Below, piece by piece: positions 1 through 60,143 of a DNA stretch of 62,842 nt (the first letter of the stretch is position 1; every line of letters starts with the position of its first letter). The notes beneath the pieces are model-generated. The model saw only the letters and a program-made list of their open reading frames with translations. It was not told where the DNA came from and searched no databases. Source of the DNA: a virus (Duplodnaviria; Caudoviricetes); the IMG/VR virus record IMGVR_UViG_3300032174_000006, positions 1-62,842 of that record. One strand, 5' to 3'. Both the position numbers and the translations under genes were made by a program.

Positions 1-127
1 GAATTCAACTGGAGGATACGAGAATGGCAAACGAAAAGAGAATCATCAACATTTTCATGGAAGGCGGGATCATTCAGGATATCCAACAGATTCCCAGCGA
101 TGTCGAGATTCACGTCTACGATTACGA
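1..127. repeat. 127-bp direct repeat identical to 62716..62842 (circular assembly overlap)
   Basis: GAATTCAACTGGAGG...GATTACGA occurs at both ends; 127 is a common assembler k-mer length. Confidence 0.95.
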
Positions 128-2934: not shown

Positions 2935-3186
2935 ATGAAAGCCAGAATAATCGCGATTCAATCCGGTTCCGACTACCAGGACGGTGAACGCCGAGTGGAA
3001 ATCCTCTTTGACGAAGCGGATAAGATGTACCGCCGCCTGCGCATCCCTGAAAAGCTGCTTGGAATGATAGGGTTACAGCTGGACAATGAGATCATCGTGG
3101 ATTTTACGCCCGCGAAGATTCTCCCCATCGACGCGCCGATTGCGCAGGTGATTCGGCATGATGAACAGGTGAAACGTGAGCAATAA
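2935..3186 (+). CDS. hypothetical protein
   Basis: GGAGGG RBS, 83 aa. Confidence 0.7.
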   Translation: MKARIIAIQSGSDYQDGERRVEILFDEADKMYRRLRIPEKLLGMIGLQLDNEIIVDFTPAKILPIDAPIAQVIRHDEQVKREQ

Positions 3187-4789
3187 AATATTCGTAGATC
3201 GCTCAAGATATGAGACTTATGGCCGATGTCCGCGGTCCCGGTTCCTGGAATATCACTTCGCCGGGGCGGGAATCGTCAGCGCGCGGCGACCGTTGCCGCT
3301 GGCGGTCGGGGGAAGCGTACATCATGGGCTGGAGGTGCTGCTGCGTGAGGGACAAGCTAAACTCACTTTCAACTACCCCGATGAGGAATTATCGTGGATG
3401 AATATTGAGGAGCACGCGGTTGAGAAGGCGCTCGCCGACTTCGCCGAATATCAATCCGCGCTGGAATTGCCGGACGCCGAACGCACGGCGGCGGTCGAGC
3501 CGAACACGATTCGCAACTTGGATGAAGCGATGAGCGTGCGAAGTGAGATGGACGAATATCTCTTCCGCGAGCAATCCGCGCTCGTGGAAGCGATGGTCCG
3601 GGCCTACGCGCGCCGGCGGCTGCGCCCGCTGCTGGAGCAATTCGAAGTGCTGGAGGTGGAACGCGAAGGGGAGTGGAAGCTATCGGAATGGACAGCGGAT
3701 TATACTGGGCGCTCTCTCCCTATTTACGATTCGCATGCCATTCCGCATGAATTGTGGTTCATGTCCCGCCCCGACGCCCTGCTCCGCGAGCGCGAATCGA
3801 ATCAACTGTACCTTCTCTCGTACAAAACCGCCGCATCCTGGGACGTCCGCAAAGCGCGTGACGCGGAGCACGACATGCAGGGGATGAGCGAGGGGATTGA
3901 GATTGAGCGGAGGCTCGCAGAATGGTGGGAGAATATCCATCGCATAGTTAAAGCGGTGGGTGAGCCGAAGGACCGCTCAAAGTGGGATTATCACTATCCG
4001 AATAGTGAGACGGTTATCCCAAATGCGATGTGCAATTTCCTTTTGGGGCTGGACGCCCCTCCCCGCATCCTCGCCGTGCGGATGGAATTCCTCTTGAAAG
4101 GCGAACGCTGGAAGGACCGCGACCTCTCCGAACGCTTCGGCGTGGAAATGCGCTCGCAGAAATCCCACTTGATTCGCCAATACGTCGCCGTCTCAACGCC
4201 TGCGCGCGGGACTGCTGGCTATAATATCGGTGACGTCAACTGGAGTTGGGACTTTATTCGAGAGGACGGCCGCGAATCCTCCCTCGCGTGGCAGAATTGG
4301 AAATCCCGCCAAGTGGAAAACGTGAAAGAATGGATCGACAAACTCGACGACGCGGCGGAAACGATGTCAGCCGAGGATTCCACGATGGGATTAGAACCGC
4401 GGCTGCTCGGATATAAATGCGACGCGCAAGCGGTCGGCGTGACGCGGCAGCATCCGCTTGACGCGGTATTCATCCCTCCGATAACAATTTTCCGAAACAC
4501 TGACGACCTCAGAGACTTGGTGGAACAGATGGAGCACCAAGAAAGACGAATCGCCGAGGGTGTAGCGCAAGTTAACGCAGCTACTGAGGATGGAGAACAG
4601 CGTAGTCTGCTAAACCAATTCTTTCCGCAAACTAGAAGGGCCTGCGAATATCCAACAACATGTGCTTTTGTTTCAATATGTTACGGAGGAGATGATATTC
4701 GTAAGAATCCTCTTGACTCGGGGAAATATAAGGTTAGAATTCCTAACCACCCGCAGGAGGGTTCTAACAATGGAGAAACTAAGCCCTGA
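3176..4789 (+). CDS. PD-(D/E)XK Cas4/RecB-like exonuclease with Fe-S cluster Cys
   Basis: N-terminal RCPR, GGSVH, EVEREG, RPDAL..SYKT, C-terminal CEYPTTCAFVSIC. Confidence 0.8.
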   Translation: MSNKIFVDRSRYETYGRCPRSRFLEYHFAGAGIVSARRPLPLAVGGSVHHGLEVLLREGQAKLTFNYPDEELSWMNIEEHAVEKALADFAEYQSALELPDAERTAAVEPNTIRNLDEAMSVRSEMDEYLFREQSALVEAMVRAYARRRLRPLLEQFEVLEVEREGEWKLSEWTADYTGRSLPIYDSHAIPHELWFMSRPDALLRERESNQLYLLSYKTAASWDVRKARDAEHDMQGMSEGIEIERRLAEWWENIHRIVKAVGEPKDRSKWDYHYPNSETVIPNAMCNFLLGLDAPPRILAVRMEFLLKGERWKDRDLSERFGVEMRSQKSHLIRQYVAVSTPARGTAGYNIGDVNWSWDFIREDGRESSLAWQNWKSRQVENVKEWIDKLDDAAETMSAEDSTMGLEPRLLGYKCDAQAVGVTRQHPLDAVFIPPITIFRNTDDLRDLVEQMEHQERRIAEGVAQVNAATEDGEQRSLLNQFFPQTRRACEYPTTCAFVSICYGGDDIRKNPLDSGKYKVRIPNHPQEGSNNGETKP

Positions 4790-6326: not shown

Positions 6327-6622
6327 GCAACTTTCGGATTGCATGTCTTCTGGGTTTGGCGTTCCTGTTCGGATTTGAGGCTTGCAATTTTACTCTGGTT
6401 CGCCCAGCGCAAGCTCAAGTTCGAGACTTGCAGACTACGCTGCGCCGTCTGATGGATGCTGACAGGGAATTACAAAACTCCACAGAAAATCTTGAGCATG
6501 CTTTGAAAGTAACAATGGATCAGCGCGACAACTTCCTTGCGCAGATAAAGCAGCAAGCGGAGATTTTAAGACTGGTTGGCGGAGATCGAGGCTATGGCCG
6601 AATCTTTATGGAGAAAAAATGA
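6323..6622 (+). CDS. membrane-anchored coiled-coil protein
   Basis: hydrophobic N-terminus then heptad-rich helix. Confidence 0.6.
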   Translation: MSNFRIACLLGLAFLFGFEACNFTLVRPAQAQVRDLQTTLRRLMDADRELQNSTENLEHALKVTMDQRDNFLAQIKQQAEILRLVGGDRGYGRIFMEKK

Positions 6623-7161
6623 GCAGCGCGAGAGAGTTTGCGGAAACGATCTGGCGAGCCTCGATTAACTTCGAGACGGACAAAGAGCGTTCGATAAAAT
6701 GGCTCATGGAGTACACGGAAGCCCGCGACGCCGCCCTCCTGCGCGACGAGCGGGCACGCAAAGATGCAGCCTATTCTGAACGTGACCAGTTGGTATGCGC
6801 CATGTCGAAACTGTTCCCGGCCAGCCTTGAGCGTCATCCCGACGAGGATACAAGTTGGGAAAATGACTGGCGGTGGATTGTGTTTATCGACTTACCTACC
6901 GGGCAGTCTACTTGGCACATCCACGATTCCGAGTTGGCAATGTTCGATCACCTACCACGTTTTCAGGGTCGCAAGTGGGATGGCCACACTACGCCTGAGA
7001 AATATGCGCGTCTTGCTTCACTTAGCGGGGCCGAACTAGCCAGAGAGCGGGCACGGCTGGAAGAAGTGCGGAGATATATCAAATCTCTTAGTAGTCTGGC
7101 CAGTTGCGAGGGAATCGTGGAGCGGTTGGAGGCCATCCTAGACAGGAAGGAATCGACGTGA
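6619..7161 (+). CDS. WDGH-motif phage protein
   Basis: IDLPTGQSTWH...KWDGHTTPEKYARL signature. Confidence 0.7.
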   Translation: MSSAREFAETIWRASINFETDKERSIKWLMEYTEARDAALLRDERARKDAAYSERDQLVCAMSKLFPASLERHPDEDTSWENDWRWIVFIDLPTGQSTWHIHDSELAMFDHLPRFQGRKWDGHTTPEKYARLASLSGAELARERARLEEVRRYIKSLSSLASCEGIVERLEAILDRKEST

Positions 7162-8942: not shown

Positions 8943-9119
8943 ATGACAATTAAAAACACGAAGGACGAAATGCTATCCCTGCGGCTTTCCTCCCGCATCA
9001 TGCAGCGATTGCGCAAGGCTGCTGACTCCAGCGGGCAGCAGATGAGCGAACTGGCGCGGCAGGCGATCCTGCGCGCGGTCGAGCGGATTGAGAGATTAGA
9101 GGGAGGGGCGAATGGGTAG
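8943..9119 (+). CDS. ribbon-helix-helix (CopG-like) DNA-binding protein
   Basis: LSLRLSSRIMQRLRKAADSSGQQMSELARQAI. Confidence 0.75.
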   Translation: MTIKNTKDEMLSLRLSSRIMQRLRKAADSSGQQMSELARQAILRAVERIERLEGGANG

Positions 9120-10140
9120 GTCACTGTGTTGGTACGGCGGAACGGGCAGCTTCAAAACCGCCCAGATGAAATGGTTCGCCCGCTACATCGCGAAGAAAAC
9201 TGGGAAAGCTACGCTCCTGCTATCCACCGACGGCGGCGGCTGGCAAGCCTGCGAGCGGGAAATCTCCGCCGGCATGATCCGCCCGTACCGCTGCGAGGCG
9301 AATGTGCTGCCGCTCGTGCTCCTCCGCAAGATCAGCCAAGGCTACTGGCCGGAGAATCCGGAGGAGACGAATCCCGAACACATCAACCTCATCCCCGTGG
9401 ATTGGAACGAAGTCGGTGGCATCGGTGTCGAAGGCTGGACGTCGATCGCGCAGGTCGGCATGCGATATCTCCCGGACAAGGGAGTGAACGTCGGCGGCGA
9501 GGACCGTGCCAAACCCGGCTCGAACATGATGTTCCGGCTCCCCTTACACGTGGATGGCCGAGTCGTTTCGGAATCCTTCGGCTCAAACACTCGCGGCGAC
9601 TACGGCTTCATCCAACGTTTCCTCTACAGCTTGGTGATGAACTTCGGCGCGCTGCCTGCGGAAGTCGCCTACTCCGCGCTCGAAGCGAAAACGGAAGACG
9701 ATGATCGCGCGACCACGTATGGTCCAGCGATTGCGGGTAAAAAAGCCACCGCGGAATGCGGCGCCTGGGTCGGGGACCTCCTCCACGCCCACGACTTCAC
9801 CATCGCACGAACAGAAAAGGTATCGAACCCGGATCCCAAAGGCGCGGAGAAACAAGTAGACATGACGGTGATGGATACCGTGGTCCGTTATTACTTCCGC
9901 AAGCATCTCGACCCGATCACTGGCATTCCCTATCCGGCCAAGACCCGCGTCGTCCCGGAAGCCATCGCGGAACTCAACAAACGCTTCCCCGGCGGATACT
10001 TCGAGCCGACAACCGAATGGGGGATCGACCGCTATCTCGAAACGATGGATGAACTATCCATCATGGCGCCGGATGATCCACTCCGCGGGTGGCGGGAAGC
10101 GATGGACCGGAAGCTCGGGAAAACAGTCTCAGCCAAGTAG
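9112..10140 (+). CDS. AAA-family P-loop ATPase (Sak4-like recombinase candidate)
   Basis: N-terminal Walker A YGGTGSFKT; Walker B-like IGVEG; PAIAGK motif; adjacent SSB-like gene. Confidence 0.7.
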   Translation: MGRSLCWYGGTGSFKTAQMKWFARYIAKKTGKATLLLSTDGGGWQACEREISAGMIRPYRCEANVLPLVLLRKISQGYWPENPEETNPEHINLIPVDWNEVGGIGVEGWTSIAQVGMRYLPDKGVNVGGEDRAKPGSNMMFRLPLHVDGRVVSESFGSNTRGDYGFIQRFLYSLVMNFGALPAEVAYSALEAKTEDDDRATTYGPAIAGKKATAECGAWVGDLLHAHDFTIARTEKVSNPDPKGAEKQVDMTVMDTVVRYYFRKHLDPITGIPYPAKTRVVPEAIAELNKRFPGGYFEPTTEWGIDRYLETMDELSIMAPDDPLRGWREAMDRKLGKTVSAK

Positions 10141-10361: not shown

Positions 10362-11153
10362 GTGAACGTAATGGGAAATTTCGGAGAACCAATCACAGGC
10401 GCGGGGGAACCCGGATCATCGGCCCCAGAGGAGCACAAGGCCAACGGCGCGACTCCGTCCGACGAGGTGCAGAATTTGCTGGACCCGAACGACCCGCGGC
10501 TCGTGTCGGAGGAATTGAACGTGAATCCCGACGCGGACGCGTACGCGCAGCCTGCGCCCCCGCCCGACGGGAAATATCGCGTCAAGCTGAAACTCGCGCG
10601 TAAGAAAGTCGGCAACGACGAGATGGATTACGTCGCCGCGCTGTGGGGGAAGGCCCCCGGCCAAGCGGTATTAGTCACCGGCATCGAAGCATCGATCATC
10701 GACCCCTCCGGGAAATACGACGGCCTGAAGGCGTACGATTTCAACGTCTCCACTTTCGTCGGCCGGGACTCCGCCACCAAAGTAACCTCCGTCCTCAGCA
10801 AACTCCGCAAGCCGGACGGCTCCCCCTGGGTGCCGCCGCACACGAAACTCTCCCCGAAGGGCTGGATGGAACTCCTCGTGAAAGCGCTCGCCGGGGAGCC
10901 GGAAGCTGGGATTGAGTCGCAATGGGAATACTCCTGCCAGGAATGCGGCAAAGCGGCGAAGGCGTCCGGGCAAGCGTATCCGCGATCGATCAACGGGATG
11001 CACAAATTCCCCGAGGAGAAGGATCGCTCGAAACGCGCCGCCGGGCAGCTCTACTCCCCGGAGATGAAATGCCCGCTGGTGGCGAGTCATGGCTACGGGA
11101 GGGCGCGCATCAGCATCGCGAGGTTTCTGTCTCTGGATGATGTGAAGAAGTAA
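10362..11153 (+). CDS. putative single-stranded DNA-binding protein (DUF669-like)
   Basis: PPPDGKYRVKL motif and position downstream of a Sak4-like ATPase; extra CQEC..C..H Zn motif. Confidence 0.5.
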   Translation: MNVMGNFGEPITGAGEPGSSAPEEHKANGATPSDEVQNLLDPNDPRLVSEELNVNPDADAYAQPAPPPDGKYRVKLKLARKKVGNDEMDYVAALWGKAPGQAVLVTGIEASIIDPSGKYDGLKAYDFNVSTFVGRDSATKVTSVLSKLRKPDGSPWVPPHTKLSPKGWMELLVKALAGEPEAGIESQWEYSCQECGKAAKASGQAYPRSINGMHKFPEEKDRSKRAAGQLYSPEMKCPLVASHGYGRARISIARFLSLDDVKK

Positions 11154-11779: not shown

Positions 11780-13150
11780 GTGAGCGTCACCGACCAATTC
11801 GGCATGCTGGGCGACGATCCCATCCCCTCGGAGGATATTCTCATCGAGGCGGCGCCGGAGGATCGCCCCGTTCCCTGTGCGAGATTGATAGGCGTAGCTG
11901 GAAGTGGGAAATCGTATCAGCTCATCAAGCGCACCACAGAGGACGATACCTATGGTCTGCTCAGTTCCACAACCGGAGTTTCAGCCGTGAACCTCGGTGC
12001 GATCACCGTCCACTCCACGCTGAAATTTTCCGACACGATCAGCCTCCGCGACGCGTATCTATGTGGCCGCCTCGCCCGCACGCTCCACGACATCGGCCAA
12101 CGCTACCGCAATCTGATAATTGAAGAATATTCGATGCTGCATGGGGATCAACTGGACCTGATCTACCGCGGCGTGCAGGAAGCGAATCGCTACGGCGACA
12201 TGCAGGATCGACCGCTTGGAATATTACTGGTAGGGGATCTCGCCCAGCTCCCCCCGGTGAAAGGGCCGTGGGTGTTCACCGCCGACTGCTGGGAACATTT
12301 CGCGACGCATACCGAGAGACTGGACAAAGTGTGGAGGCAAGATGGGGGACCATTTCTTGATGCTCTTAATCTATTGCGCAGCGGCAACGGGCCTGCTGCT
12401 GCTGACCTTCTTACTCGCGCAGGGGCTCATTGGCATACTCAACTGGATAACGAATTCGACGGCACGACCATCCTCCCCAAGAACGATATGGTCAACCGAT
12501 TCAACTCCCTCGCGCTCTCCCGAGTCCCCGGAAAAGCGTTCCAAGTGACCTCCCGCCGCTGGGGCCTTCAGCGCCGCGAATGGGGCGAGAACCCCCGCAC
12601 GCACGAATGGGGCATCCCCCCGCGATTGGACCTCAAGATCGGCGCCCTCGTCATGGTCCTCGCCAATTCCCCCGATTTCAGCGTTGTGAACGGCGACACG
12701 GGCCATATCGAGGAAATTGACCCATCCGGCCGGGTAATCGTTAAACTCCTCCGTACGGGCCTCCTGGCCCCCATAGCGAAGATCGTACGAGCCGTCGAGG
12801 AATCGGATCGACCCCCCGGATGGTCCGATTCCTCCCCCCGCATCGACGATTCCGAAGGCGCGGTATGGCACGCAGCACCGCATCGGCGACGGAAAAGTGG
12901 GCGGTATGTCACCGGACAGATTGAATACATGCCACTTAGACTCGCCTACGCGTCCACGGTGCATAAGTCCCAGTCCCTCACCTTGGACCGCATCCAAGTG
13001 GACATCCGCGATAGATTCTTCGCGCAGCCGGCGATGGAATACGTGGCACTGAGCCGAGTCCGAACTTTAGAGGGGCTCCGCATCGTCGGCTCCCCGGAAC
13101 GTTTCGCAGCACAATGCACGATCGACGAAAGGACAACACCCTGGATATGA
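11780..13150 (+). CDS. Pif1/RecD-like SF1B DNA helicase
   Basis: GVAGSGKS, IIEEYSM, VGDLAQLPPV, NGDTG, LAYASTVHKSQSLTL, YVALSR. Confidence 0.92.
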   Translation: MSVTDQFGMLGDDPIPSEDILIEAAPEDRPVPCARLIGVAGSGKSYQLIKRTTEDDTYGLLSSTTGVSAVNLGAITVHSTLKFSDTISLRDAYLCGRLARTLHDIGQRYRNLIIEEYSMLHGDQLDLIYRGVQEANRYGDMQDRPLGILLVGDLAQLPPVKGPWVFTADCWEHFATHTERLDKVWRQDGGPFLDALNLLRSGNGPAAADLLTRAGAHWHTQLDNEFDGTTILPKNDMVNRFNSLALSRVPGKAFQVTSRRWGLQRREWGENPRTHEWGIPPRLDLKIGALVMVLANSPDFSVVNGDTGHIEEIDPSGRVIVKLLRTGLLAPIAKIVRAVEESDRPPGWSDSSPRIDDSEGAVWHAAPHRRRKSGRYVTGQIEYMPLRLAYASTVHKSQSLTLDRIQVDIRDRFFAQPAMEYVALSRVRTLEGLRIVGSPERFAAQCTIDERTTPWI

Positions 13151-13377: not shown

Positions 13378-13661
13378 TGCTCGACATGCTCGGCAACAAG
13401 ATCCACGAGAAATCCATCCTCTACTGGCACCCTGACCCCAACCACGGCGTCATCTGCCAGGTCGCCCACGTCACCGACGGCGGCATCTCCATGGGCGACT
13501 CAAACGAACTCACCCCGCCGATGTTAGTCATCCAGGTGATGATCCCCGTGACCAACACTCCCCGCGGCAAAGAGCCGATGCTCACGCAATTCGTCTGCGC
13601 GGTGAATCCCACCGCCGAAGCGGCGATCGAAAAAATGATGGCGGGGCAGAGGAAACAGTGA
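13377..13661 (+). CDS. hypothetical protein
   Basis: TGATG overlap; 94 aa. Confidence 0.65.
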   Translation: MLDMLGNKIHEKSILYWHPDPNHGVICQVAHVTDGGISMGDSNELTPPMLVIQVMIPVTNTPRGKEPMLTQFVCAVNPTAEAAIEKMMAGQRKQ

Positions 13662-14107
13662 CAACACGGGCCAAGCCGGATCCGTATGTGATAGTAGTGC
13701 TTTATTTGTGTGGACTGAGTACCCGACAAATTGGCAAGCTACTTTCGCATCCGCACGGGATGATCGCACATATCGTAAAGGCCGAGGGAATTTCTCGTAC
13801 TCAGTCTGCTGCTGCAATGTTGAGACAGCCACCAAAGAGCAAACATTGGAGAAGTTCTAGACAGGCGGCGCGTAAGGCATATCAGAGATATCATCAAATT
13901 AAGCTCACGTCGGATCAACATGTTCATCACATTAACCATAACCATACAGATAATAGAATTGAGAACTTGACCATACTGAATGCTTCTGAGCATACAAAGC
14001 ATCACCATCCCAAGAATCCAATTCCTCGATGGCTCCGTCCGGATCGTCGTGAGTATATGAAGGCGTATCTAAAAGAGTATGGGAAGACATATAAGAGGAA
14101 GTTGTGA
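13658..14107 (+). CDS. HNH endonuclease with N-terminal HTH
   Basis: VHHINHNHTDNRIENL..H..HH; GLSTRQIGKLL HTH-like segment. Confidence 0.85.
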   Translation: MTTRAKPDPYVIVVLYLCGLSTRQIGKLLSHPHGMIAHIVKAEGISRTQSAAAMLRQPPKSKHWRSSRQAARKAYQRYHQIKLTSDQHVHHINHNHTDNRIENLTILNASEHTKHHHPKNPIPRWLRPDRREYMKAYLKEYGKTYKRKL

Positions 14108-17043
14108 CTTCGCGCCAAAAACCTGAGTCTTGCCGATCGTGCGCCTGCGCCAGCCATGGTTCAGACTTTTCCCGTGTGGATGGAACTGGCAGCAATGGAG
14201 TTCTTTTAGTTGGTGAGGCTTCTGGAGAAATGGAGGCGCGGGAGCAGCGTCCATTTGTTCAATACGCTCCGGCGGGTTCGCTTCTTGAACGCACGTTTCG
14301 CCGGATGGGAATGTCTCGCGAGCAATTCTCAATTACAAATATCCGCCGCTGCCGCCCTAAGAACAATTGGGTACTTGGCGCGCCATGGGAATATTCCTCC
14401 GCGAATCATTGCCGACCAAACCTTGATGCAGTGATTGCTGAGCGCAAGCCACGATGTATAGTCGCGTTGGGTGGAGATGCGCTTCGTGAGTTGACTGGCT
14501 TAGCGGGTCCAGCACGGGGCATTACCCATCTTGCTGGATATCCTCTCCTTGGGCCTAATTCTATCCCCACAATTGGGGACTTCCACCCAGCATTTCTGCG
14601 TCGCGGTAAGGCATCTCACCAAGGCCTCTTCGCCCGCATCCTCCGCCGCGCAACGGAAATCGCCGCCGGCCGCGACACACAATTCCAATGGAACATCTCC
14701 CCGGAGGATCCATCGTCCCATGCCCAACTCAACTATCAAACCCGTCCCACCACAGATGCGGCAATGGCGTTTGCAGCTTACGTCCTCGACCATCCACAGC
14801 TGCCAGTTAGCTACGACCTTGAGACGCAAGAATCTGCATCCCTTGACGAGGACGCAAGAGAAGGATTTATTGACACTCACATCCGACTTGTGCAGTTTGC
14901 TATTGGAGGTGCGGGCGCTATTGCTCTCCCATGGGAGCCTGGATTCCAGAAGGCGATTACGTCCATTCTTCACTCACCTAATACGAAGTGTGGGCACAAT
15001 GTCTGGTTATTCGACAACAAAGTCCTCCGCGCGGCAGGTGAGCGCGAGGGAATTGATCTCGCGCCTGGAGGAATAATCCATGACACGCTTCAGATGTTTC
15101 ATCATTGGCAGCCTGATCTGCCTGCCCATTTGCAGTTCTGCGCTCAGTTTGTATCCTTTCCGTTCCCATGGAAACATCTGGCGGGTACTAATATTGAGTT
15201 CTACGGTTGTGCTGATGTGGATGCTACTCTACGTCTCTACACATTCCTCGAATCAACGCTGAATCGTGACGGCATCCTCGGCGACTCCACCCTCGGCTAC
15301 CTCGGTCAAGTCTACTCCGTCCGTCCCGTGCTCGCCGCCATGGAAGACCGCGGCATGCCCATCGACGACGCCGCGCGGATCAAACTCGACGAGGAATTCA
15401 CCCTCGCGCAACGGGAGATCGGCACGGAACTCGCCTCGCTCGCGCCGGATGAGTGTAAACGCGTGCATCCGAAGCAGGGGTATAAGGGGATTCCTCCTGA
15501 GGTGAAAGAGACTCTCCATTCTCTCGGACGCGCTGATGAGCCATTGGAGTTTGTCAGTGTGAACCACATCTTCCGAGATGGCGATGACGGCGAGTATTAC
15601 CGTTATGAACAACGCGAATTTACTGTACCAACCGTAGACGCGTTCTCTGGCGAGCCCGTAGCAATCCCCACGACCCGCTGGTGCCGCGTCTACGATTTCA
15701 ATCCGAACTCTAAAGATCAAGTGATCGCGTACATGCGCGCGAAGGGGCATCGCATCCCCAAGTCGAAGGAGGAACATGAAGACGGCACGCAGAAGGACAC
15801 GACGGCCGAGAAAGAACTTCGCCGACTTGCCGTCCGCACCGGCGATCAGTTCTATCTTAAAGTCGTGGAATATCGTGGATTTACTAAACTCCGATCCACA
15901 TACATTGATGGGTTTAACCCTCAGCCTGACGGATGCGTCCATACAACCTTTACGTTCGCTCCGGCCATCGGACAGCTCTCTAGTCGCAACCCTAACATTC
16001 AAAATTTCACGAAGCTGAAGCCCACCGTCGCGCTCGCGAAGGCCATGCGCAAAATGGTCGCCGCGAAGCCAGGCCACATTCTCACCGAATGGGACTTCAA
16101 ATCCTGCCATATCATCACCCTCGGATTTCTTGCGGAAGATCTGAACTACATGCGCCTCGGCCGACTCGACATGCACTCCTTCGTCGCAGGCCACTTTCTC
16201 AAACTCTGGGACGGATTCAAAATATTCAACGAATCCGACGATGAACTCCGTGCACGATTCAAATGGCTGAAATCCGACCCTGTCAGAAAGCGAGTCCGCG
16301 ATGACCAAGCGAAACACGGTATCCTCGGGATCGGCAACGGCCTCCGCGCGAAGGGGCTCTACGAGCGATACATGGAAAGTTTTCCGCCAAGTCCGTGCCT
16401 TGACTGCCAGGGCCGAGGCACTGATGCGGGAGTCCGAGGACTGCGTAAGTGTCGCAGTTGCGCTGGTGTGGGGCAGCAATCTGGCCAGCGTACTGCCGAA
16501 GCCGTCCTCGAAGTCGCCGAAGCCCTTTTCCCGCGCATCTTCCAGTACCAAGAAGCGCAACGTAAAGAAGCGCACGAGTCCCAGCGCCTCGTCACGCCCT
16601 TCGGCTACGCGCGCCGCTTCTACGAAGTCTATCGCTGGGACGGGAAGCGGAACGCGTGGGGGCACGGGGACCAAGCAGAGGAAGCGGTAGCGTATCGGCT
16701 GGCGAATATCGCGTTTGGACACATACGGGAGAAATTAAAGGAGCTGCATCATGCGGACCTCGATCGGAAATATGGACTATTCAATAACGTACATGATAGC
16801 TTTATGTTCCATTTTGATGAATCGCTATTGGCCGAGCACATTGCAGAGGTGCGCCCCCTACTTACTACTCCTTCTACTGTGTTGCGTCATCCTACCATTT
16901 GTCCGGAGGGATTAGTCATCGACGTCGAAGGTGCCTACGGACACAACTGGGGAGAAATGACGGAAATCTCCATCAAGGATATTCCACTCCATGACGTTGT
17001 TGGACGTGAATATGCTCATTCGGCGTCCCCGGATCCTCAATAA
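14104..17043 (+). CDS. polA: family A DNA polymerase with N-terminal family-4-like uracil-DNA glycosylase and 3'-5' exonuclease domains
   Basis: UDG: CRSC, VGEASG, PFV, TNIRRCRP, HPAF; exo I YDLET, exo II HN..FD, exo III YGCAD; pol: LSSRNPNIQN, motif A WDFKS, motif B AKHGILG, motif C VHDS. Confidence 0.93.
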   Translation: MTSRQKPESCRSCACASHGSDFSRVDGTGSNGVLLVGEASGEMEAREQRPFVQYAPAGSLLERTFRRMGMSREQFSITNIRRCRPKNNWVLGAPWEYSSANHCRPNLDAVIAERKPRCIVALGGDALRELTGLAGPARGITHLAGYPLLGPNSIPTIGDFHPAFLRRGKASHQGLFARILRRATEIAAGRDTQFQWNISPEDPSSHAQLNYQTRPTTDAAMAFAAYVLDHPQLPVSYDLETQESASLDEDAREGFIDTHIRLVQFAIGGAGAIALPWEPGFQKAITSILHSPNTKCGHNVWLFDNKVLRAAGEREGIDLAPGGIIHDTLQMFHHWQPDLPAHLQFCAQFVSFPFPWKHLAGTNIEFYGCADVDATLRLYTFLESTLNRDGILGDSTLGYLGQVYSVRPVLAAMEDRGMPIDDAARIKLDEEFTLAQREIGTELASLAPDECKRVHPKQGYKGIPPEVKETLHSLGRADEPLEFVSVNHIFRDGDDGEYYRYEQREFTVPTVDAFSGEPVAIPTTRWCRVYDFNPNSKDQVIAYMRAKGHRIPKSKEEHEDGTQKDTTAEKELRRLAVRTGDQFYLKVVEYRGFTKLRSTYIDGFNPQPDGCVHTTFTFAPAIGQLSSRNPNIQNFTKLKPTVALAKAMRKMVAAKPGHILTEWDFKSCHIITLGFLAEDLNYMRLGRLDMHSFVAGHFLKLWDGFKIFNESDDELRARFKWLKSDPVRKRVRDDQAKHGILGIGNGLRAKGLYERYMESFPPSPCLDCQGRGTDAGVRGLRKCRSCAGVGQQSGQRTAEAVLEVAEALFPRIFQYQEAQRKEAHESQRLVTPFGYARRFYEVYRWDGKRNAWGHGDQAEEAVAYRLANIAFGHIREKLKELHHADLDRKYGLFNNVHDSFMFHFDESLLAEHIAEVRPLLTTPSTVLRHPTICPEGLVIDVEGAYGHNWGEMTEISIKDIPLHDVVGREYAHSASPDPQ

Positions 17044-30339: not shown

Positions 30340-30648
30340 CTAGCTGAACTCGAAATGACCCGATGCTTTGACAAATTTGAGCGTGGCGCCATTCGCAAGT
30401 GTGTTTACATCTACCGGCGCAACATACAATCCCGCTATCTTAGTATTCGCAGGCCCATTTGAAGTTTCCGTCGCGCCAGCTTTCACCTTGGATTGCAACT
30501 CCGCATGACTCTTCTGCAACTCCGTATGTGCATCCTGCAACGAATACAGTTGATCGAGCACCTGCTTCAGCGCGCGCTGCGTCGTGTGTGGGTCCTTGAG
30601 CTGATCCGCCTGCGGGTACCAACGATTCTGCTTAGAGGGTTGACTCAC
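30340..30648 (-). CDS. putative structural protein
   Basis: short coiled coil, follows the nozzle gene. Confidence 0.55.
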   Translation of the reverse strand: MSQPSKQNRWYPQADQLKDPHTTQRALKQVLDQLYSLQDAHTELQKSHAELQSKVKAGATETSNGPANTKIAGLYVAPVDVNTLANGATLKFVKASGHFEFS

Positions 30649-33600
30649 GGTTGTTCGTACCTCCGAAATTCCGGCTGATTAAATACGGTGCGGTGCGTCC
30701 CCACGCCCCTACGCGAATTTCACTATCGTCGAGGAAAATCTGAAATGGATTCGCGCTGTTCGCGGTGAAATTGAACAGTTGCCCCTTGTTCGCGCTGACT
30801 ACGAATAACGTTTTCTGATACGCGCCGCCGGTCGAGGGAAGGGTGATCGGCGCGGGGGATTGGCCATCGTACGATTGAATCGTCAGCGTGACCGCCGACG
30901 CCGCCACATACGCTAGCACCACCTCGCGAATATGCCCGTACCCGGACATCCCAAACGACGCGCCGAACGTCCTCCACGCAAGCATCCTCGCTGGCTGGAT
31001 CGCGAAGCTCGGCTGCCAGAGGTATAGTTTCGTCGGCCCGGACTGCACGCTGAAGTCGTCTGCCCATGCGGTGAACAGTCCCATGAAATCGCTGACCACG
31101 GTCCCGCTGTTCGGCACGACCGCGACCGGATATCTCGTACGCGTGTTGCTGGAAACGAACGTTGTCGCCCCGAACACCGCCGCCCCGAGCGACATCGGCG
31201 TGAACGCAACTCCCAGCCTCGCCGCCGGAGTGAGGTCCACGAAGAAATCCCCCCATTGCTTCGGCGCGCGCACGTCCCCGCCGTCCCATTCGTTCGTCGC
31301 GAGAGTGCAGGGGATGGGAGTCGTGGCGCTGCCGAACGGATTGGCGAAGTCGTTGGTATTCTCCCGCTGCACGCAGCCGAACGTCGCGAAGCTGCCGAAT
31401 CCCACCACCGCCGACGCCGCGAATAACGTCTCTGGATTCGTCTGCGTCGGAATCTGCTCCACGTGGCAGCCGGCGGTGATGCCAGACGGATACACGTCGT
31501 AGCACCACGCCATCCGCTGAACGTTCAGCGTGAGACAGCGGTACACGGCGTTTGTATCCTGATAAATAAAGTAGAGATATCCGAGGGAATAGAACAATCT
31601 GAACTGAAACACACGGTTGTAATCCGGCGCGGCGATGGTCACGCCGTTGTAGATGTAATCCACGCCTTGGCTTCCCTCGTGCGGGAAGAGTTCATATAAA
31701 TCCGCGTCGGTGAGCGATCCCTGTGTGGAGGAATAAATCCCGTCCTTCGCGACCCAGTAGATATTCTGCCCGTCGTTGCAATGCGCGAACGGCGCGGCGA
31801 TGCCTCTCGTGAATGGCTGCTGCACGATCGCGTACCGCTGCGCGGCGTTTCCCTGCTGCGGATATAACGCCCACCACCGTTCCGGCGACGCGACGAAGGA
31901 TAATCCATCCAGCGTCTCGCCTCCGACAAGCGGCTCCGACGGCGGGGTGATCTCTAAATTGTACGTGTCCGGCGCGGCGTCCGGCGTGTTGTTCTTGCTG
32001 AACGACACCGTCCCCGGCCGGAACGGGTCCCCGCACGCGAACACGGTCCCGGTCGCGTCCGGCCCCCACATATACGGAAGCCGCTGCGCCGCGATGAACG
32101 GCTCCTGGATGATGTACGCGACGTTCGCTCCCGCGCCAGCGTTCTCCACGAATTGCAGGAGATAATTCGTCCCGGAAATCAACGTCGGCCGTGCCCATAG
32201 CGTGTACACGTTCAATCCGCCGAGTTGGATCAACGTGCCGGGGAGATAGCGGGTGATATCCGTGTCCATGGAAGAGACCACCGCGACCGTGCCGTTCACA
32301 ATCGACGCCACGCCGAAATTCGGGACATCCACGCTCGGCCATGGCTCGAAGTTATCAAAGTCCAGCGCCTCCCCGGCCTGCGCGGCGGCGTCGTCAAAAT
32401 TGTCGATGAACGTCGGGCTGCCGGTCGGCGTCGAGCCGATGAATCTCCATTGTGTGACCGCGCCGCCGTATCGGAAGATATCCCACGTGTCGATCTGTGG
32501 ATCGTACGCGGCGGATGGGAGATACACCGTTACCTGCCCGCGGCGGGGGTTGACGCCATATCGCGACGCTGGGGAGGGATTCCCGATGACTCCGGTATTC
32601 CGCGCCCGTGGCCGCACACGATATAGTAAGGGTGCGCCGATATCCCCGACGTCCGGCTGATACCCCCCGAACACGAATGGCAAATCCGTCGCCACGTTGA
32701 TCGTCCCGCTCGCGTTCCATAGAAATTGTATCTTCGTGAGCGTTTGAAGCGACTTCGTCTGATCGTTCCCCACCCGCGTAAGCGCACTAATCGGGAACAC
32801 TACCTGCGTCCACTGTCCGCTGCCGGGGAGCAGCTGCGTGCCGCTGGTCGTGTCGATGAATCCGGCCTGCGCGCTGATGGCCGCCGTCTCCGCGTCAATC
32901 CCTGCGCGCTGGGACGCCGTCTGCGATGTGGCAAGCTGCGTCGCGGAGTTCGCCACCGCCGCCGCGATATCCGACGGGCGGATGGTGTAATAGTAGAAAT
33001 TCTGCGTGAAGCTCGCGTCGCCGACGTCGAGGAGGAATTTCAATTCCGTGAGATTCGCGAGGGTGTCGATTTTAATCCCCAGCGAGATGTAATCCTCCTC
33101 CTGAAACGACGCGCCGGAAAGGTTGAACGGATTCGCGGGGACGGTCACGCTGGTCATCGTGCCGATTCCGGTGGTCACTTGGTACGTGGTATCCGGGTCG
33201 GTGATCGCTTGGCCCGCGACCGGAGGCGTCGCCACCCCGCCGCTCGGCAGACTGTAAAACACCTGCACCGTCGCGCCGTCGATCGTGAATCCGCGAACAT
33301 GCGTGCCGAAATTCACCGCCGCGACTGTGACGCCAAAGTTCGCCGCATTGACCTGCGCCGGAGTCCAAGTGGTGCCCCAGAGGTCTATATTAGAGCCATA
33401 AGTAACCGGGTGTATGCCGCTATTGAGGGAGGAATGGTCCGGTCCGAATTGTAATCCCCCCTTCAGCGCAAACACATTCCCGTCGCCGATGTCAGTGTCC
33501 GCCCTCGTGCGCCAGTTAACAGTGAACGCGATCCCTAGAATAGTCGCGGCGGCTGGGACGGCTAATCCGAATTGCGTGATGTTCAGATTATCGCTTATGA

Positions 33601-39028: not shown

Positions 39029-39999
39029 TTCACCCATCCTCGGGACTGGACTTCTCCCATGATGGAGTCTACACTGCTTCGCCCGTAAATCATTGGACAA
39101 TATGACCCGGATTCCAGAATCGCAGGGGGACACCACGCGTGCGACATCTCCTCCTCGAAGGATAGGAATCCCGACCGGGAGATGGAATCGCCACGCGGGC
39201 GCCACCACATCGCGGTGGGGACGTTGAGATAGGTGGAAATGATCCCCACGCCGGCTTGATACGAGATTAGAAATTTAGAATTCTTCGTCACGGAGAAGAG
39301 TTCCCCGATGGTGGTCCGGCCGATGAGGTCGATCCAGTGGGAGGAGGTGCCGTTCAGCCGCGGCGCGAGCATGTGGGTGTAGTAATCGTGATCGTATTCC
39401 GCGCCGACGACGACGATGGGCAGGCCGAATTGCTTGAATATCCGCTCCCCGAGTTCCACCCATTCCGCAGGCTTCCATAACATGTTGCGATTATGCCCTT
39501 CGATGGTGTTGCCATGTAGCGGACCGGGATAGAACACCGCGAACGGGCCGAGTTTGGACCGCACCATGGCACCGTACGCGAGTTCTTTCGAGGTCAGGCG
39601 GAAGTGGGAGAATATTCCCCAGTTGATGTCATAGTGCGGTAGCCATTTCTCCAGCCGGATTCCGCGTTCGAGCGGGGCGTTGGGGATCAGCACGGTATAA
39701 TGCTCACCCTTAAATATATAGTCTCCATCTTCGATGTAATCCCAGTATCCGCCGGGAGTGAAAGGCGGCTTGTCCGCGCCGGAATTGTTCAAGAGGCCGT
39801 AATTCAGCCGCATGTCCACGGACCGGACGAACTCGAATCGACGGAGAAAATCCAGCGCGCGGTCTTGCAGCATATTGCGCTCGGAACAGGTGAGGAAGAC
39901 GTCGATCGGCTCGCCGGGGGCGAGTTTATCCCGGATGGCTTGGATTTTATGCAGCGCCCACACGCTGTCGCCGATTCCCTGCGGGAGTAAGAATTTCAT
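39025..39999 (-). CDS. GT9-like (heptosyltransferase-fold) glycosyltransferase
   Basis: PQGIGD..W, IVVVG, IDLIGRTTIGEL, FLISYQAG. Confidence 0.75.
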   Translation of the reverse strand: MKFLLPQGIGDSVWALHKIQAIRDKLAPGEPIDVFLTCSERNMLQDRALDFLRRFEFVRSVDMRLNYGLLNNSGADKPPFTPGGYWDYIEDGDYIFKGEHYTVLIPNAPLERGIRLEKWLPHYDINWGIFSHFRLTSKELAYGAMVRSKLGPFAVFYPGPLHGNTIEGHNRNMLWKPAEWVELGERIFKQFGLPIVVVGAEYDHDYYTHMLAPRLNGTSSHWIDLIGRTTIGELFSVTKNSKFLISYQAGVGIISTYLNVPTAMWWRPRGDSISRSGFLSFEEEMSHAWCPPAILESGSYCPMIYGRSSVDSIMGEVQSRGWVK

Positions 40000-60048: not shown

Positions 60049-60078
60049 AGGATAGCATGGGGTATAGGACACTGTCAA
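60049..60078 (-). promoter_or_regulatory. sigma70-like promoter of the leftward arm
   Basis: TTGACA-18 nt (ending TGC)-TATCCT. Confidence 0.65.
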
Positions 60079-60143
60079 TCACATTCCACCTTATACATAA
60101 TTTCCTTGCTATCATACTTATAATGTTATATATACACGCGATT

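What the first reader, a model, noticed from the sequence alone, without database searches (positions are those of the whole stretch)
15973..16800. Family-A polymerase with a concertedly rebuilt nascent-base-pair pocket in a phage with no visible primase
Seen (E. coli Pol I numbering, by-eye alignment): catalytic D705 (WDFKS, 16093), K758 (16312), H881-D882 (VHDS, 16792) and all three exonuclease motifs are intact. The usual TGRLSS reads IGQLSS (R668->Q, 15973). DYSQIE reads DFKSCH (steric gate E710->H, 16108). KAINFGLIYG reads KHGILGIGNG (F762->L, Y766->N). NAPMQG appears to read AYRLAN (N845 and Q849 lost). Established: R668, E710, Y766, N845 and Q849 form the network that reads the minor groove, and E710 excludes ribonucleotides. 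Inference: these interacting residues changing together around an intact catalytic core looks like a new specificity, not decay. Options are rNTP use/self-priming (no primase or DnaB-type gene was recognised), bypass of abasic sites made by the fused UDG, or accommodation of a modified base.
Basis: partly seen in the sequence, partly recalled or inferred. Interest (0 to 1): 0.85.

Follow-up and report, generated by a model that had tools for sequence, protein, structure and literature searches.

The report
Phage DNA polymerase with rebuilt active-site pocket
An uncultured phage, and a large group of its relatives, copy their DNA with a Pol I-type polymerase fused to a uracil-removing enzyme, in which several residues long treated as fixed in this enzyme family are replaced in a conserved and coordinated way whose effect has not been tested.

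Summary
ORF 14104-17043 (+) encodes a 979-aa fusion of a family-4 UDG, a 3'-5' exonuclease and a family-A polymerase. Three alignment methods give the same map in E. coli Pol I numbering: R668Q, E710H, F762L, Y766N, N845A and Q849A. They also show E883S, Asn at 850 and one extra residue between R754 and K758. The catalytic residues D705, K758, H881 and D882 and the exonuclease residues are intact.

This is not decay. Q668 and H710 are near-invariant across a large metagenomic clade, whereas E. coli Pol I, N4, SPO1, a Manatee Spring UDG-PolA and 52 cellular Pol I all keep R and E. Positions 766 and 849 co-vary repeatedly (p = 0.0005).

The window is a complete 62.8-kb phage genome. Six primase and DnaB families gave no hit in it or in four relatives.

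- Nothing supports rNTP use or self-priming.
- No base-modification genes were seen.
- Abasic-site bypass now has a precedent in SP15-like UDG-PolAs (NAR 2026).

My best reading is an active, primer-dependent, proofreading replicase with an alternative pocket, coupled to uracil excision. It is a new variant of a known kind.

The parts
14104..17043 (+). Gene for the 979-aa UDG / 3'-5' exonuclease / family-A polymerase fusion (P0001). The GTG start overlaps the stop of the upstream HNH ORF by 4 nt.
   Evidence: PF03167 E 3e-15; PF00476 E 6e-20, above the cut-off; phrog_17, E 6e-50. AF2 model: mean pLDDT 88.9, pTM 0.87. Foldseek to Klenow, Bst and Taq: E about 1e-22, target-normalised TM 0.73-0.79.
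14104..14658 (+). Family-4 uracil-DNA glycosylase domain (about aa 1-185). The four Cys (C10, C13, C83, C103), E38 in GEASG, P50-F51, N79 and H161-P162 are kept.
   Evidence: alignment to TM0511 (1l9g/1vk2, E 4e-14). Family conservation (E38 225, N79 238, H161 247, C103 244 of 268 rows, the rest mostly gaps) and in the invariant columns.
14792..15363 (+). 3'-5' exonuclease domain with Exo I (D238, E240), Exo II (D304) and Exo III (Y367, D371). Approximate bounds.
   Evidence: All five residues are invariant or nearly so.
15964..15984 (+). The 'TGR' motif, read here as A-I-G-Q-L-S-S. Q624 replaces R668.
16093..16110 (+). Motif A, D664-F-K-S-C-H669. The catalytic Asp is kept and the steric-gate Glu is replaced by His.
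16297..16341 (+). Motif B / O-helix, R732-D-D-Q-A-K737-H-G-I-L741-G-I-G-N745-G. R754 and K758 are kept with one extra residue between them. F762 is L and Y766 is N.
   Evidence: Helix 726-744 in the model.
16396..16473 (+). Cys-rich insertion in the fingers with two CxxCxGxG motifs (CLDCQGRG ... CRSCAGVG, aa 765-790).
   Evidence: Two CxxC are present in 81 of 128 N766 members, 2 of 98 F766 members and 0 of 28 L766 members.
16690..16707 (+). Helix-Q segment A863-Y-R-L-A867-N868. N845 is A, Q849 is A, and a conserved Asn lies one residue later.
   Evidence: Continuous helix 858-883 in the model.
16792..16800 (+). Motif C, H897-D898-S899. H881 and D882 are kept and E883 is Ser.
11780..13150 (+). 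SF1 helicase of the Dda/RecD/Pif1 type, conserved upstream of the polymerase.
   Evidence: phrog_325, E 3e-48; AAA_30, PIF1. A homolog is present in 19 of 21 related loci.
10362..11153 (+). Conserved 263-aa protein of unknown family, tentatively an OB-fold/SSB-like protein. Not a recognisable primase.
   Evidence: Present in 18 of 21 loci. No Pfam, PHROG or PDB-profile match. AF2 pLDDT 71.6. Foldseek gave no match at E <= 0.001; the best by probability is PrgE at 0.84, with several SSBs at E > 1.
9112..10140 (+). Conserved 342-aa P-loop ATPase, weakly Sak4/AAA_24-like.
   Evidence: Present in 17 of 21 loci. Walker-A consensus. phrog_124 E 5.5e-6. AAA_24 matched in 2 of 12 members. No PDB profile hit.
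3176..4789 (+). 537-aa PD-(D/E)XK nuclease.
   Evidence: PF12705, E 1.9e-6; 30 of 30 Atlas feature hits are PDDEXK_1 clusters. Present in 12 of 21 loci, many of which are cut at the flank.
13658..14107 (+). HNH endonuclease ORF directly upstream of the polymerase. Probably a mobile homing-type insert and not part of the replication core.
   Evidence: A homolog is present in only 1 of 21 related loci.

Best explanation
The gene encodes the replicative DNA polymerase of a complete 62.8-kb phage with terminal repeats. It is a single chain with an apparently active family-4 UDG, an active 3'-5' proofreading exonuclease and a family-A polymerase.

The catalytic core of the polymerase is canonical: D705, R754, K758, H881 and D882. 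The pocket around the nascent base pair is built from a different, clade-specific set of residues:
- Gln for the Arg668 'fork' that contacts the primer-terminal base and the dNTP sugar;
- His for the Glu710 steric gate;
- Leu for Phe762;
- Phe, Asn or Leu for Tyr766 (Asn in this phage);
- Ala plus an adjacent Asn for Gln849;
- Ser or Ala for Glu883.

Shown: this set is conserved and co-evolving across hundreds of sequence clusters. It is absent from every other UDG-PolA and Pol I examined.

Inferred:
- The enzyme is still a primer-dependent, dNTP-selective DNA polymerase. His supplies the bulk under the sugar C2'. Gln and Asn supply shorter, uncharged hydrogen-bond donors in place of Arg and Gln.
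- The paired loss of a positive (Arg) and a negative (Glu) side chain next to the dNTP sugar is a charge-neutral swap.
- By analogy with SP15-like UDG-PolAs, the UDG domain surveys the template strand for dU ahead of the active site. The polymerase then has to copy past the resulting abasic site.
- Position 766 fills the gap of the missing base in KlenTaq and is the most variable, co-varying pocket position here. It is therefore the best candidate for tuning that step.
- Primers probably come from the host primase, from transcripts or from recombination intermediates. The conserved nuclease, Sak4-like ATPase, SSB-like protein, SF1 helicase and the terminal repeats all fit the recombination route.
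For: Residue map by four methods.

Family tallies over the 268 proteins fetched up: Q668 250 of 261 non-gap rows, H710 257 of 263, D705 259, K758 254, Arg at K-5 254, L762 230, H881 255, D882 259. At 766 the counts are N 128, F 98, L 28 and Y 4. Twenty-three further members read Q in 22 of 23 and H in 22 of 23, whereas 52 of 52 cellular Pol I read R and E.

Most apparent exceptions at 668 are in long proteins. In the one I checked (P0004), an intein sits inside TGQLS|S and Q is kept.

All outgroups are canonical: E. coli Pol I and N4 gp39 (T7 gp5 reads R, E, Y, Y, N, Q in the MAFFT alignment), the Manatee Spring split UDG-PolA and SPO1 gp31.

Co-variation of L766 with Q849: 16 independent pairs, 12 in the same direction, 0 opposite, 4 with no difference, p = 0.0005.

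The AF2 model is confident (pLDDT 88.9) and has the Pol I fold. UDG catalytic and Fe-S residues are conserved.

Precedent for dU excision ahead of the fork plus abasic-site bypass comes from PMC13697223 (abstract, sections 15 and 21, passages). The role of Tyr671, the equivalent of Y766, at abasic sites comes from a passage in PMC11273360.

The replication core is conserved in related loci.
Against: - There is no biochemical evidence for any member of this clade. Activity, sugar selectivity and fidelity are all inferred.
- In Klenow, mutations at R668, E710 and Q849 are reported to damage catalysis (my recollection, no call). A canonical-like activity here therefore depends on compensation that I could not model, because the tools return no coordinates.
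- The SP15-like enzymes used as the analogy appear to keep canonical pocket residues. The paper names Phe on the O-helix and refers to the E710 gate. Their phages encode PolX and a ligase. None was found here in 0 of 5 genomes, though the PolX control passed its cut-off in no genome.
- Absence of a primase is consistent with several priming routes. It does not by itself favour the one proposed.
Confidence: 0.6

Rival explanations
1. The pocket is tuned for lesions. The remodelled residues, above all position 766 and its partner at 849/850, exist mainly so that the polymerase can insert and extend opposite the abasic sites that its own cis UDG creates in the template. They may also set which nucleotide is inserted.
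For: - The UDG catalytic residues are conserved across the clade.
- Related SP15-like UDG-PolAs excise template dU ahead of the fork and bypass THF sites with dA (PMC13697223).
- In KlenTaq, Tyr671 (the equivalent of Y766) occupies the place of the missing base and guides purine insertion (passage in PMC11273360).
- Position 766 is the most labile pocket position here, with 29 changes of state on the tree, and it co-varies with 849.
Against: - The SP15-like enzymes manage bypass with what appear to be canonical pocket residues.
- Q668 and H710 are fixed across the clade while 766 varies, so the two fixed changes need another explanation.
- No AP endonuclease, PolX or ligase was found to finish repair. 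PolX and ligase gave 0 of 5 genomes, though the PolX control passed its cut-off in no genome.
Confidence: 0.15
2. Sugar selectivity is relaxed or changed. Loss of the Glu710 gate, the Glu710-Tyr766 pair and Phe762 lets the enzyme use rNTPs. At the extreme it starts chains itself, alone or with the conserved OB-fold protein, which would replace the missing primase.
For: - Three residues known to govern sugar discrimination (E710, F762, Y766) are all changed.
- No primase or DnaB family was detected in 0 of 5 genomes at least 93% complete, with six Pfam families tested.
- A family-A polymerase plus a small OB-fold partner acts as a primase in SCCmec (CCPol-MP; PMC7581432 passages; PMC10061031 abstract).
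- A conserved protein that may have an OB fold lies in the module.
Against: - His is as bulky as Glu, so a gate is probably kept.
- CCPol keeps E710 and F762, uses dNTPs and lacks the exonuclease domain. This enzyme has a full, conserved proofreading domain that would degrade short primers.
- Leu762 is common in ordinary phage PolAs (PMC6302109, PMC10201439).
- Many phages lack a primase and borrow the host's (my own knowledge).
- The OB-fold assignment is weak, with no Foldseek match at E <= 0.001.
Confidence: 0.08
3. The pocket is adapted to a non-canonical base in the phage genome, as in other UDG-PolA phages whose thymine is replaced or hypermodified.
For: [quoted passage not shown] The UDG is thought to keep plain dU out (PMC10201439; PMC13697223).
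Against: - Pfam and PHROG scans of the ORFs found no dUMP hydroxymethylase, thymidylate-synthase homologue, dCTP deaminase, dUTPase or other nucleotide-modification gene. The only related gene is a DNA methyltransferase at 60057-60824.
- The WDGH-domain ORF is linked to Tad3 anti-defence proteins and not to nucleotide metabolism.
- SPO1 itself has a canonical pocket.
- Known phage modifications lie in the major groove, which these residues do not touch (PMC13697223 discussion).
Confidence: 0.1
4. The gene is decaying, or encodes an inactivated polymerase kept for another role.
For: A few clade members are clearly degenerate. P0201, P0218 and P0234 have lost D705, K758 and other residues.
Against: - In the query and in about 250 relatives every catalytic and exonuclease residue is intact. 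The new residues are themselves near-invariant down to about 32% identity.
- It is the only polymerase found in a complete genome.
- Inteins target its TGQLSS motif, which is typical of essential active sites.
Confidence: 0.02

Closest known systems
SPO1-like and other 'unclassified' UDG-PolAs with an active-type UDG (Czernecki et al. 2023, PMC10201439; Missoury et al. 2026, PMC13697223)
   Same: An N-terminal family-4 UDG with its catalytic residues kept, fused to a 3'-5' exonuclease and a family-A polymerase. A phage replicase of about 900-1000 aa.
   Different: SPO1 gp31 reads TGRLSS, DYSQLE, F762, Y766 and N..Q, while this clade reads Q, H, L, F/N/L and A-N. SPO1 pieces score only 34-38 bits against the clade HMM. 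SPO1 encodes hmU-pathway genes and a primase (annotation), and none were found here.
SP15-like UDG-PolAs (YerA41, phiLo; cryo-EM and biochemistry, PMC13697223)
   Same: An active UDG in cis, with the only tested mechanism for this architecture: dU excision on the template ahead of the fork followed by abasic-site bypass.
   Different: Those enzymes are about 1300 aa (YerA41 is 1306) with two large inserts and a C-terminal domain. Their phages have hypermodified thymidine and encode PolX and a ligase. This enzyme is 979 aa, and no PolX or ligase was found in 0 of 5 genomes, with the PolX control weak. The paper describes a Phe on the O-helix and the usual E710 gate. I could not see its supplementary alignment.
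N4-like PolA (cluster 17 of Czernecki et al.)
   Same: The UDG-exonuclease-PolA order. An SF1 helicase lies just upstream. A Sak4-like ATPase followed by a roughly 265-aa protein (SSB in N4), and an exonuclease, lie in the same module.
   Different: The N4 UDG has lost its catalytic residues, whereas they are kept here. N4 gp39 has SGRLSS and DFASLE with Phe at B3. N4 encodes a 715-aa primase. Sequence similarity is marginal (tblastn E 2e-4).
Leu762 phage PolAs of viromes (Nasko et al. 2018, PMC6302109; leucine-B3 clusters of Czernecki et al.)
   Same: Leu at 762. Neighbouring helicases are of the non-ring type and not gp4/DnaB.
   Different: Leu762 alone is common and already described. The papers I read treat the TGR Arg and the A2 Glu as conserved. 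The Q668/H710 pair is not mentioned in the passages I read.
CCPol-MP primase of SCCmec (PMC7581432, PMC10061031)
   Same: A family-A polymerase in a module that lacks a classical primase, next to a small protein that may have an OB fold.
   Different: CCPol has no exonuclease domain and keeps E710 and F762. This enzyme has a full proofreading domain and a changed pocket. No sequence relation was tested.

Membership tests
Family A DNA polymerase (Pfam PF00476) | Profile match above the curated cut-off, and the Pol I fold | tested here: met
   71.9 bits against a cut-off of 34.3. Family profile against Klenow E 2.4e-44. Foldseek target-normalised TM 0.73-0.79 to Klenow, Bst and Taq.
Family A DNA polymerase | Catalytic carboxylates and basic residues: motif A Asp705, motif C His881-Asp882, motif B Arg754 and Lys758 | tested here: met
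   D664, H897-D898, R732 and K737. R732 is one residue further from the Lys than in Pol I.
Family A DNA polymerase | Arg of the 'TGR' motif (R668) | tested here: not met
   Q624. Q stands in 250 of 261 non-gap clade rows, and R in 52 of 52 cellular Pol I.
Family A DNA polymerase | Steric-gate Glu of motif A (E710, position A2) | tested here: not met
   H669. H stands in 257 of 263 clade rows, and E in 52 of 52 cellular Pol I.
Family A DNA polymerase | Motif 6 / helix Q residues Asn845 and Gln849 | tested here: not met
   A863 and A867 by MAFFT, the HMM and the PDB profile. Q is kept in that column only in L766 and Y766 members, 29 of 259 non-gap rows. Asn at the next position in 211 rows.
UDG-PolA architecture (Czernecki et al. 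2023) | [quoted passage not shown] | tested here: met
   PF03167 at aa 32-170. TM0511 E 4e-14. One confident single-chain model.
UDG-PolA with an active UDG (SPO1-like / SP15-like type) | UDG catalytic motifs A (GE..G) and B (HP.), the uracil-binding Asn and the four Fe-S Cys | tested here: met
   E38, G41, F51, N79, H161-P162 and C10/C13/C83/C103 are aligned to TM0511 and conserved in the clade. Enzyme activity itself is not testable here.
N4-like PolA (cluster 17) | UDG catalytic residues lost; Phe at B3 | tested here: not met
   The UDG residues are kept and B3 is Leu. The definition is from PMC10201439.
SP15-like PolA | Two large inserts and a C-terminal domain in an enzyme of about 1300 aa; PolX and ligase in the genome | tested here: not met
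   979 aa. PF14792 and PF01068 gave 0 of 5 genomes, though the PolX control rang only below its cut-off. The inserts were not compared structurally.
CCPol-MP type primase | Polymerase domain without exonuclease domains, in a tight complex with a small OB-fold partner | tested here: not met
   The exonuclease domain is present and conserved. Any partner interaction was not tested.
Leu762 virome PolA groups | Leu at position 762 with non-ring helicase neighbours | tested here: met
   L741. An SF1 helicase lies upstream. Phylogenetic placement within Nasko's groups was not tested.

The most novel reading that the evidence does not exclude
The Q668/H710/L762/N766 pocket makes this polymerase self-sufficient in a replisome without a primase. 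Working with the conserved 263-aa protein (possibly an OB fold), it would start DNA chains de novo or from rNTPs. That would be a second, independent case of a family-A polymerase turned primase, here inside a proofreading, uracil-excising replicase. A less radical version is that the pocket sets a new lesion or sugar specificity that can be read directly from the F/N/L766 and Q/A849 subtypes.
Probability: 0.07. Interest if true: 0.9.

Novelty: new variant of a known kind. Interest (0 to 1): 0.6.

Why it matters
Arg668, Glu710, Tyr766 and Gln849 are textbook residues of Pol I-type polymerases. They underlie minor-groove checking, sugar discrimination and abasic-site behaviour, and they are favourite targets of polymerase engineering.

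This large natural clade has replaced them all and still keeps a proofreading replicase under strong selection. It offers a ready-made set of natural pocket solutions: F766+A/N, N766+A/N, L766+Q and the rare Y766+Q. These can show which contacts are truly required and how fidelity, sugar choice and lesion bypass are coupled.

The clade also widens the newly described class of replicases that combine uracil excision with synthesis. It shows this in a phage group that lacks PolX, ligase and primase, so it raises a concrete question about how such genomes are primed and repaired. If the pocket merely does the same job with other residues, the result is still useful for annotation, because 'TGQ' and a His gate should not be read as inactivation.

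Tried and rejected
- Structural check of the residue register. AF2 gave a confident model, but the tools return no coordinates or residue-level superposition. I could not measure where Q624, H669, N745 and N868 point. The one-residue ambiguity at helix Q was instead settled by sequence: canonical Q849 aligns to the column where L766 and Y766 clade members keep Q.
- Primase hunt.
  - PHROG and Pfam scans of 51 ORFs found none.
  - Six-frame searches with PF09250, PF13155, PF01807, PF03796, PF01896 and PF08275 gave 0 of 5 genomes.
  - PF00940 (T7-type RNA polymerase) gave 0 of 5, but its control rang nowhere, so that search says nothing.
  - tblastn with N4 gp43 primase gave nothing below E 0.89.
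- The two conserved unknowns.
  - Profiles A1 and A2 against the PDB gave nothing usable.
  - The A2 model gave only weak OB/SSB-like Foldseek rows.
  - Pfam on A1 found AAA_24 in 2 of 12 members.
- I briefly suspected that the WDGH-domain ORF (6619-7161) was a nucleotide pyrophosphohydrolase linked to a Z-genome. I rejected this because the Atlas links the domain to Tad3 anti-defence proteins, and a full-text search for the word found nothing relevant.
- The SP-15 hit H72 turned out to be a stand-alone UDG gene and not the polymerase, so I did not read SP15-like pocket residues myself.
- A complex prediction of the polymerase with the 263-aa protein was not run. The report does not claim that they bind, and SSB-polymerase contact would not separate the hypotheses.
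- I did not use sequencing runs.
The supplementary alignment of PMC13697223 and the motif logos (figures) of PMC10201439 may bear on whether TGQ or a His gate has been noted before.
- The claim that the Q668/H710 signature is not in print rests only on searches and on the passages read.

Full report
WHAT IS THERE

The window is a complete virus record of 62,842 bases with direct terminal repeats. CheckV rates it 100% complete, and the first and last 127 bases are identical. ORF 14104-17043 on the + strand starts with GTG and overlaps the stop of an upstream HNH ORF by four bases. It encodes 979 residues.

Pfam finds a family-4 type UDG domain (PF03167, aa 32-170, E 3e-15) and DNA_pol_A (PF00476, 71.9 bits against a cut-off of 34.3). 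PHROGs gives phrog_17, DNA polymerase, at E 6e-50. An AlphaFold2 model built on 36 family sequences is confident, with mean pLDDT 88.9 and pTM 0.87. It matches Klenow, Bst and Taq large fragments at Foldseek E about 1e-22 and target-normalised TM 0.73-0.79, at 15-18% identity.

The public gene call for this protein (P0002, 937 aa) starts later. It would cut off the conserved CxxC and GE motifs of the UDG domain, so the GTG at 14104 is the better start.

CHECKING THE OBSERVATION

I fetched E. coli K-12 polA to fix the numbering: R668, D705-E710, K758, N845 and H881. Four alignment methods then gave the same map:
- phmmer against Taq;
- MAFFT of 92 sequences including E. coli Pol I and T7 gp5;
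- a family HMM against E. coli Pol I;
- a family profile against the Klenow chains of the PDB.

The map reads R668->Q624, D705=D664, E710->H669, K758=K737, F762->L741, Y766->N745, N845->A863, Q849->A867, H881=H897 and D882=D898. The exonuclease residues D355, E357, D424 and D501 correspond to D238, E240, D304 and D371.

- E883 is Ser (S899).
- A conserved Asn (N868) follows the Q849 column.
- The Arg corresponding to R754 is kept (R732), with one extra residue before the Lys. Cellular Pol I sequences align their Arg to that column with a gap.

IS IT DECAY OR A TRAIT?

A word-indexed search found 292 relatives at E <= 0.001 among 8000 scored candidates. The best 120 were listed, at 46-100% identity, and nearly all carried both Pfam domains. 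A full HMMER scan of 1.84 billion cluster representatives found 11,104 proteins at E <= 0.001 and 703 at E <= 1e-30, of which the best 150 were listed.

I aligned all 268 proteins fetched up to to a family HMM, with these counts:
- Q at 668 in 250 (S 7, G 2, K 1, E 1, gap 7)
- H at 710 in 257
- D705 in 259
- K758 in 254
- the Arg at K-5 in 254
- L at 762 in 230 (H 16)
- H881 in 255
- D882 in 259
- Ser or Ala at 883 in 228
- at 766: N 128, F 98, L 28, Y 4

Twenty-two rows deviate at 668 or 710:
- Several are fragments.
- Ten are S, G or K calls at 668, nine of them in proteins of 1178-1335 aa and one (P0128) in a 756-aa protein. In the one I checked (P0004), an intein of about 266 aa sits inside TGQLS|S and Q is in fact kept.
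- Three (P0201, P0218, P0234) are truly degenerate.
- Three have single odd residues.

A second search seeded with the most ancestral-looking member (P0153) added 23 clade members. Q stood in 22 of 23 (the last was a gap) and H in 22 of 23. The same search added 52 cellular Pol I, which read R, D, E in 52 of 52 and K, F, Y, N, Q, G, H, D, E (or D at 883) in 49 of the 50 that aligned through; one more reads H-G-E in motif C. A score gap from E 4e-40 to E 6e-12 separated the two groups.

The known UDG-PolAs I could read are canonical:
- N4 gp39 reads SGRLSS and DFASLE.
- The Manatee Spring split UDG-PolA, MW202554, reads R, E, Y, Y, Q.
- SPO1 gp31 reads TGRLSS and DYSQLE with F, Y, N and Q.

The Q/H pocket is therefore a derived, conserved signature of one clade within the UDG-PolAs.

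CONCERTED CHANGE

On a FastTree of 255 clade members, built without the trait columns, position 766 changes state 29 times. N against the rest changes 11 times and L against the rest 18 times. Column 849 switches between Q and non-Q 15 times.

The two positions move together:
- L766 with Q849: 25
- L766 without Q: 3
- F766 without Q: 98
- N766 without Q: 121
- N766 with Q: 2
- Y766: 2 with Q and 2 without

Of 16 phylogenetically independent pairs that differ at 766, Q849 goes the same way in 12, the opposite way in 0, and does not differ in 4 (sign test p = 0.0005).

The query belongs to one large clade of 116 tips (113 N, 2 F, 1 L) with local support 1.0, nested among F766 sequences (FastTree; deep branches are weakly supported). 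These are FastTree results on metagenomic proteins. Recombination between phages could contribute to the pattern, but either way the two positions are inherited as a functional pair.

It also supports the alignment register at helix Q.

THE UDG DOMAIN

Alignment to the T. maritima family-4 UDG (1l9g/1vk2, E 4e-14) lines up the following: CxxC at the N terminus, GEASG with GEGPG, RPF, the Asn in ITNIRRCRP and the His in FHPA. Across the clade E38, G41, P50, N79, H161-P162 and the four Cys (C10, C13, C83, C103) are conserved wherever the N terminus is present. By sequence this is the active type of UDG. It is unlike N4, whose UDG has lost its catalytic residues (PMC10201439).

THE REST OF THE REPLICATION MODULE, AND THE PRIMASE QUESTION

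Twenty-one related IMG/VR loci were found. Many come from 57-65-kb contigs. The genes conserved with the polymerase are:
- an SF1 Dda/RecD-like helicase (19 of 21 loci);
- a 263-aa protein of unknown family (18 of 21);
- a 342-aa P-loop ATPase, weakly Sak4/AAA_24-like (17 of 21);
- a 537-aa PD-(D/E)XK nuclease (12 of 21, with many loci cut at the flank).

The order Sak4-like ATPase, then a roughly 265-aa protein, then helicase and polymerase recalls N4. There the roughly 265-aa protein is the SSB, and a 715-aa primase is also present.

The 263-aa protein gave no profile match. Its model has pLDDT 71.6 and a disordered first 68 residues. The model gave no Foldseek match at E <= 0.001. The most probable row was the SSB-like PrgE (probability 0.84), with several bacterial and phage SSBs further down. 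I therefore call it possibly SSB-like and no more.

No primase turned up:
- PHROG and Pfam scans of 51 ORFs found none.
- Six-frame searches with Prim-Pol, Toprim_2, the DnaG zinc ribbon, DnaG_N, AEP small subunit and DnaB_C gave 0 of 5 genomes. These were this genome plus four relatives at 93-100% completeness. The controls rang in 3 to 14 of 14 known genomes.
- The T7-type RNA polymerase search is uninformative because its control rang nowhere.

The 'no visible primase' part of the finding holds at the level of profile searches. A novel primase among the small unknown ORFs cannot be excluded.

COMPARISON WITH WHAT IS KNOWN

UDG-PolAs are a described architecture.
- Czernecki et al. 2023 (PMC10201439; abstract and passages) define N4-like cluster 17 and note SPO1, SP-10, SP-15 and unclassified UDG-PolAs. 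They present the TGR motif and the A2 steric gate among conserved positions in 19 clusters, and single out B3 (762) as the variable one.
- Leu at 762 is common in viromes, where it goes with non-ring helicases (PMC6302109, passages).
- Missoury et al., NAR October 2026 (PMC13697223; abstract, sections 15 and 21, passages), solved structures of SP15-like UDG-PolAs. The UDG domain excises dU from the template ahead of the fork. The polymerase bypasses the abasic site, preferentially with dA. PolX and a ligase co-occur in those genomes.

In this phage group PolX and ligase searches gave 0 of 5 (the PolX control was weak). The enzyme also lacks the size of the SP15-like proteins.

In KlenTaq, the Tyr equivalent to Y766 fills the place of the missing base at an abasic site and guides purine insertion (passage in PMC11273360). 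CCPol, the only family-A polymerase known to prime, keeps E710 and F762, lacks exonuclease domains and needs a small partner (PMC7581432 passages; PMC10061031 abstract).

I found no mention of a natural TGQ motif or His gate in four full-text searches or in the passages read.

HOW IT MOST LIKELY WORKS

Shown: the catalytic and proofreading residues are intact, the UDG is of the active type, the pocket set is conserved and co-varying, the fold is confidently Pol I-like, and the genome has no recognisable primase.

Inferred:
- The enzyme is the phage's primer-dependent replicase.
- His669 still blocks a 2'-OH by bulk.
- Gln624 and Asn868 replace Arg and Gln as shorter, neutral hydrogen-bond donors to the minor groove.
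- Losing Arg and Glu together is a charge-balanced swap around the dNTP sugar.
- The UDG surveys the template for dU as in SP15-like enzymes, so the polymerase must cope with abasic sites. Position 766 (Asn here) is the likeliest tuning point for that.
- Primers come from the host, from transcripts or from recombination intermediates.

I put 0.6 on this reading, 0.15 on a pocket built mainly for lesion bypass, 0.1 on a modified-base adaptation, 0.08 on changed sugar selectivity or priming, and 0.02 on decay.

VERDICT

This is a new variant of a known kind, a UDG-PolA with a remodelled nascent-base-pair pocket. It is large enough and clean enough to be worth biochemical study. None of the more exciting functions is yet indicated by evidence.

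Noticed in passing
window 16396-16473 (aa 765-790 of the polymerase): An insertion in the fingers carries two DnaJ-like CxxCxGxG motifs and is probably a zinc-binding knuckle. Two CxxC occur in 81 of 128 N766 clade members, 2 of 98 F766 members and 0 of 28 L766 members. pLDDT dips to about 71 here. Its function is unknown.
   Followed up: partly
P0004 (homolog, 1260 aa); also P0030, P0057, P0121-P0123 and other homologs of 1180-1400 aa: Many clade members carry inteins. In P0004 a roughly 266-aa intein sits inside the TGQLS|S motif. One homolog has the Pfam intein-splicing domain PF14890 and another has PF07591. Other insertion sites were not mapped.
   Followed up: partly
P0201, P0218, P0234 (homologs): Three clade members have lost D705, K758 and other catalytic residues but keep full length (852-880 aa). 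They may be inactivated paralogues or pseudo-polymerases.
   Followed up: no
window 13658-14107 (+) and 53291-53851 (-): There are two HNH endonuclease ORFs. The first abuts the polymerase start and has a homolog in only 1 of 21 related loci. The second lies between the terminase and portal genes. Both look like mobile homing-type inserts.
   Followed up: partly
window 6619-7161 (+): A 180-aa protein with a WDGH domain (PF25311, E 2.4e-9). The Atlas finds this domain joined to the Thoeris inhibitor Tad3 in some phage clusters, so it may be an anti-defence gene.
   Followed up: partly
L027-L030 (genome contigs): Relatives of the polymerase lie on contigs of MAGs labelled Terracidiphilus and Acidobacteriota. 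These include a 231-residue exonuclease-domain fragment at 48% identity inside a 2.5-Mb contig (L030). One further relative lies on a short Solirubrobacterales contig. This is a host lead (Acidobacteriota) and perhaps a prophage remnant.
   Followed up: no
window 54348-56600 (-): The presumed large terminase is 750 aa. Terminase-like matches occur only at aa 75-184 and 614-692, so it may carry a large insertion or an intein.
   Followed up: no
L031 (MW202554.1) 1727-2986 and 3138-4364: In this Manatee Spring podovirus the UDG-exonuclease part and the polymerase part of a UDG-PolA are annotated as two separate ORFs 150 bases apart. This could be a split gene, an intron or a frameshift.
   Followed up: no
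window 1-127 and 62716-62842: An exact 127-base direct terminal repeat, which agrees with the IMG/VR class given.
   Followed up: yes
window 30632-34735 (-) and 36695-39208 (-): Two very large ORFs (1367 and 837 aa) in the structural arm have no PHROG match at E <= 0.01.
   Followed up: no
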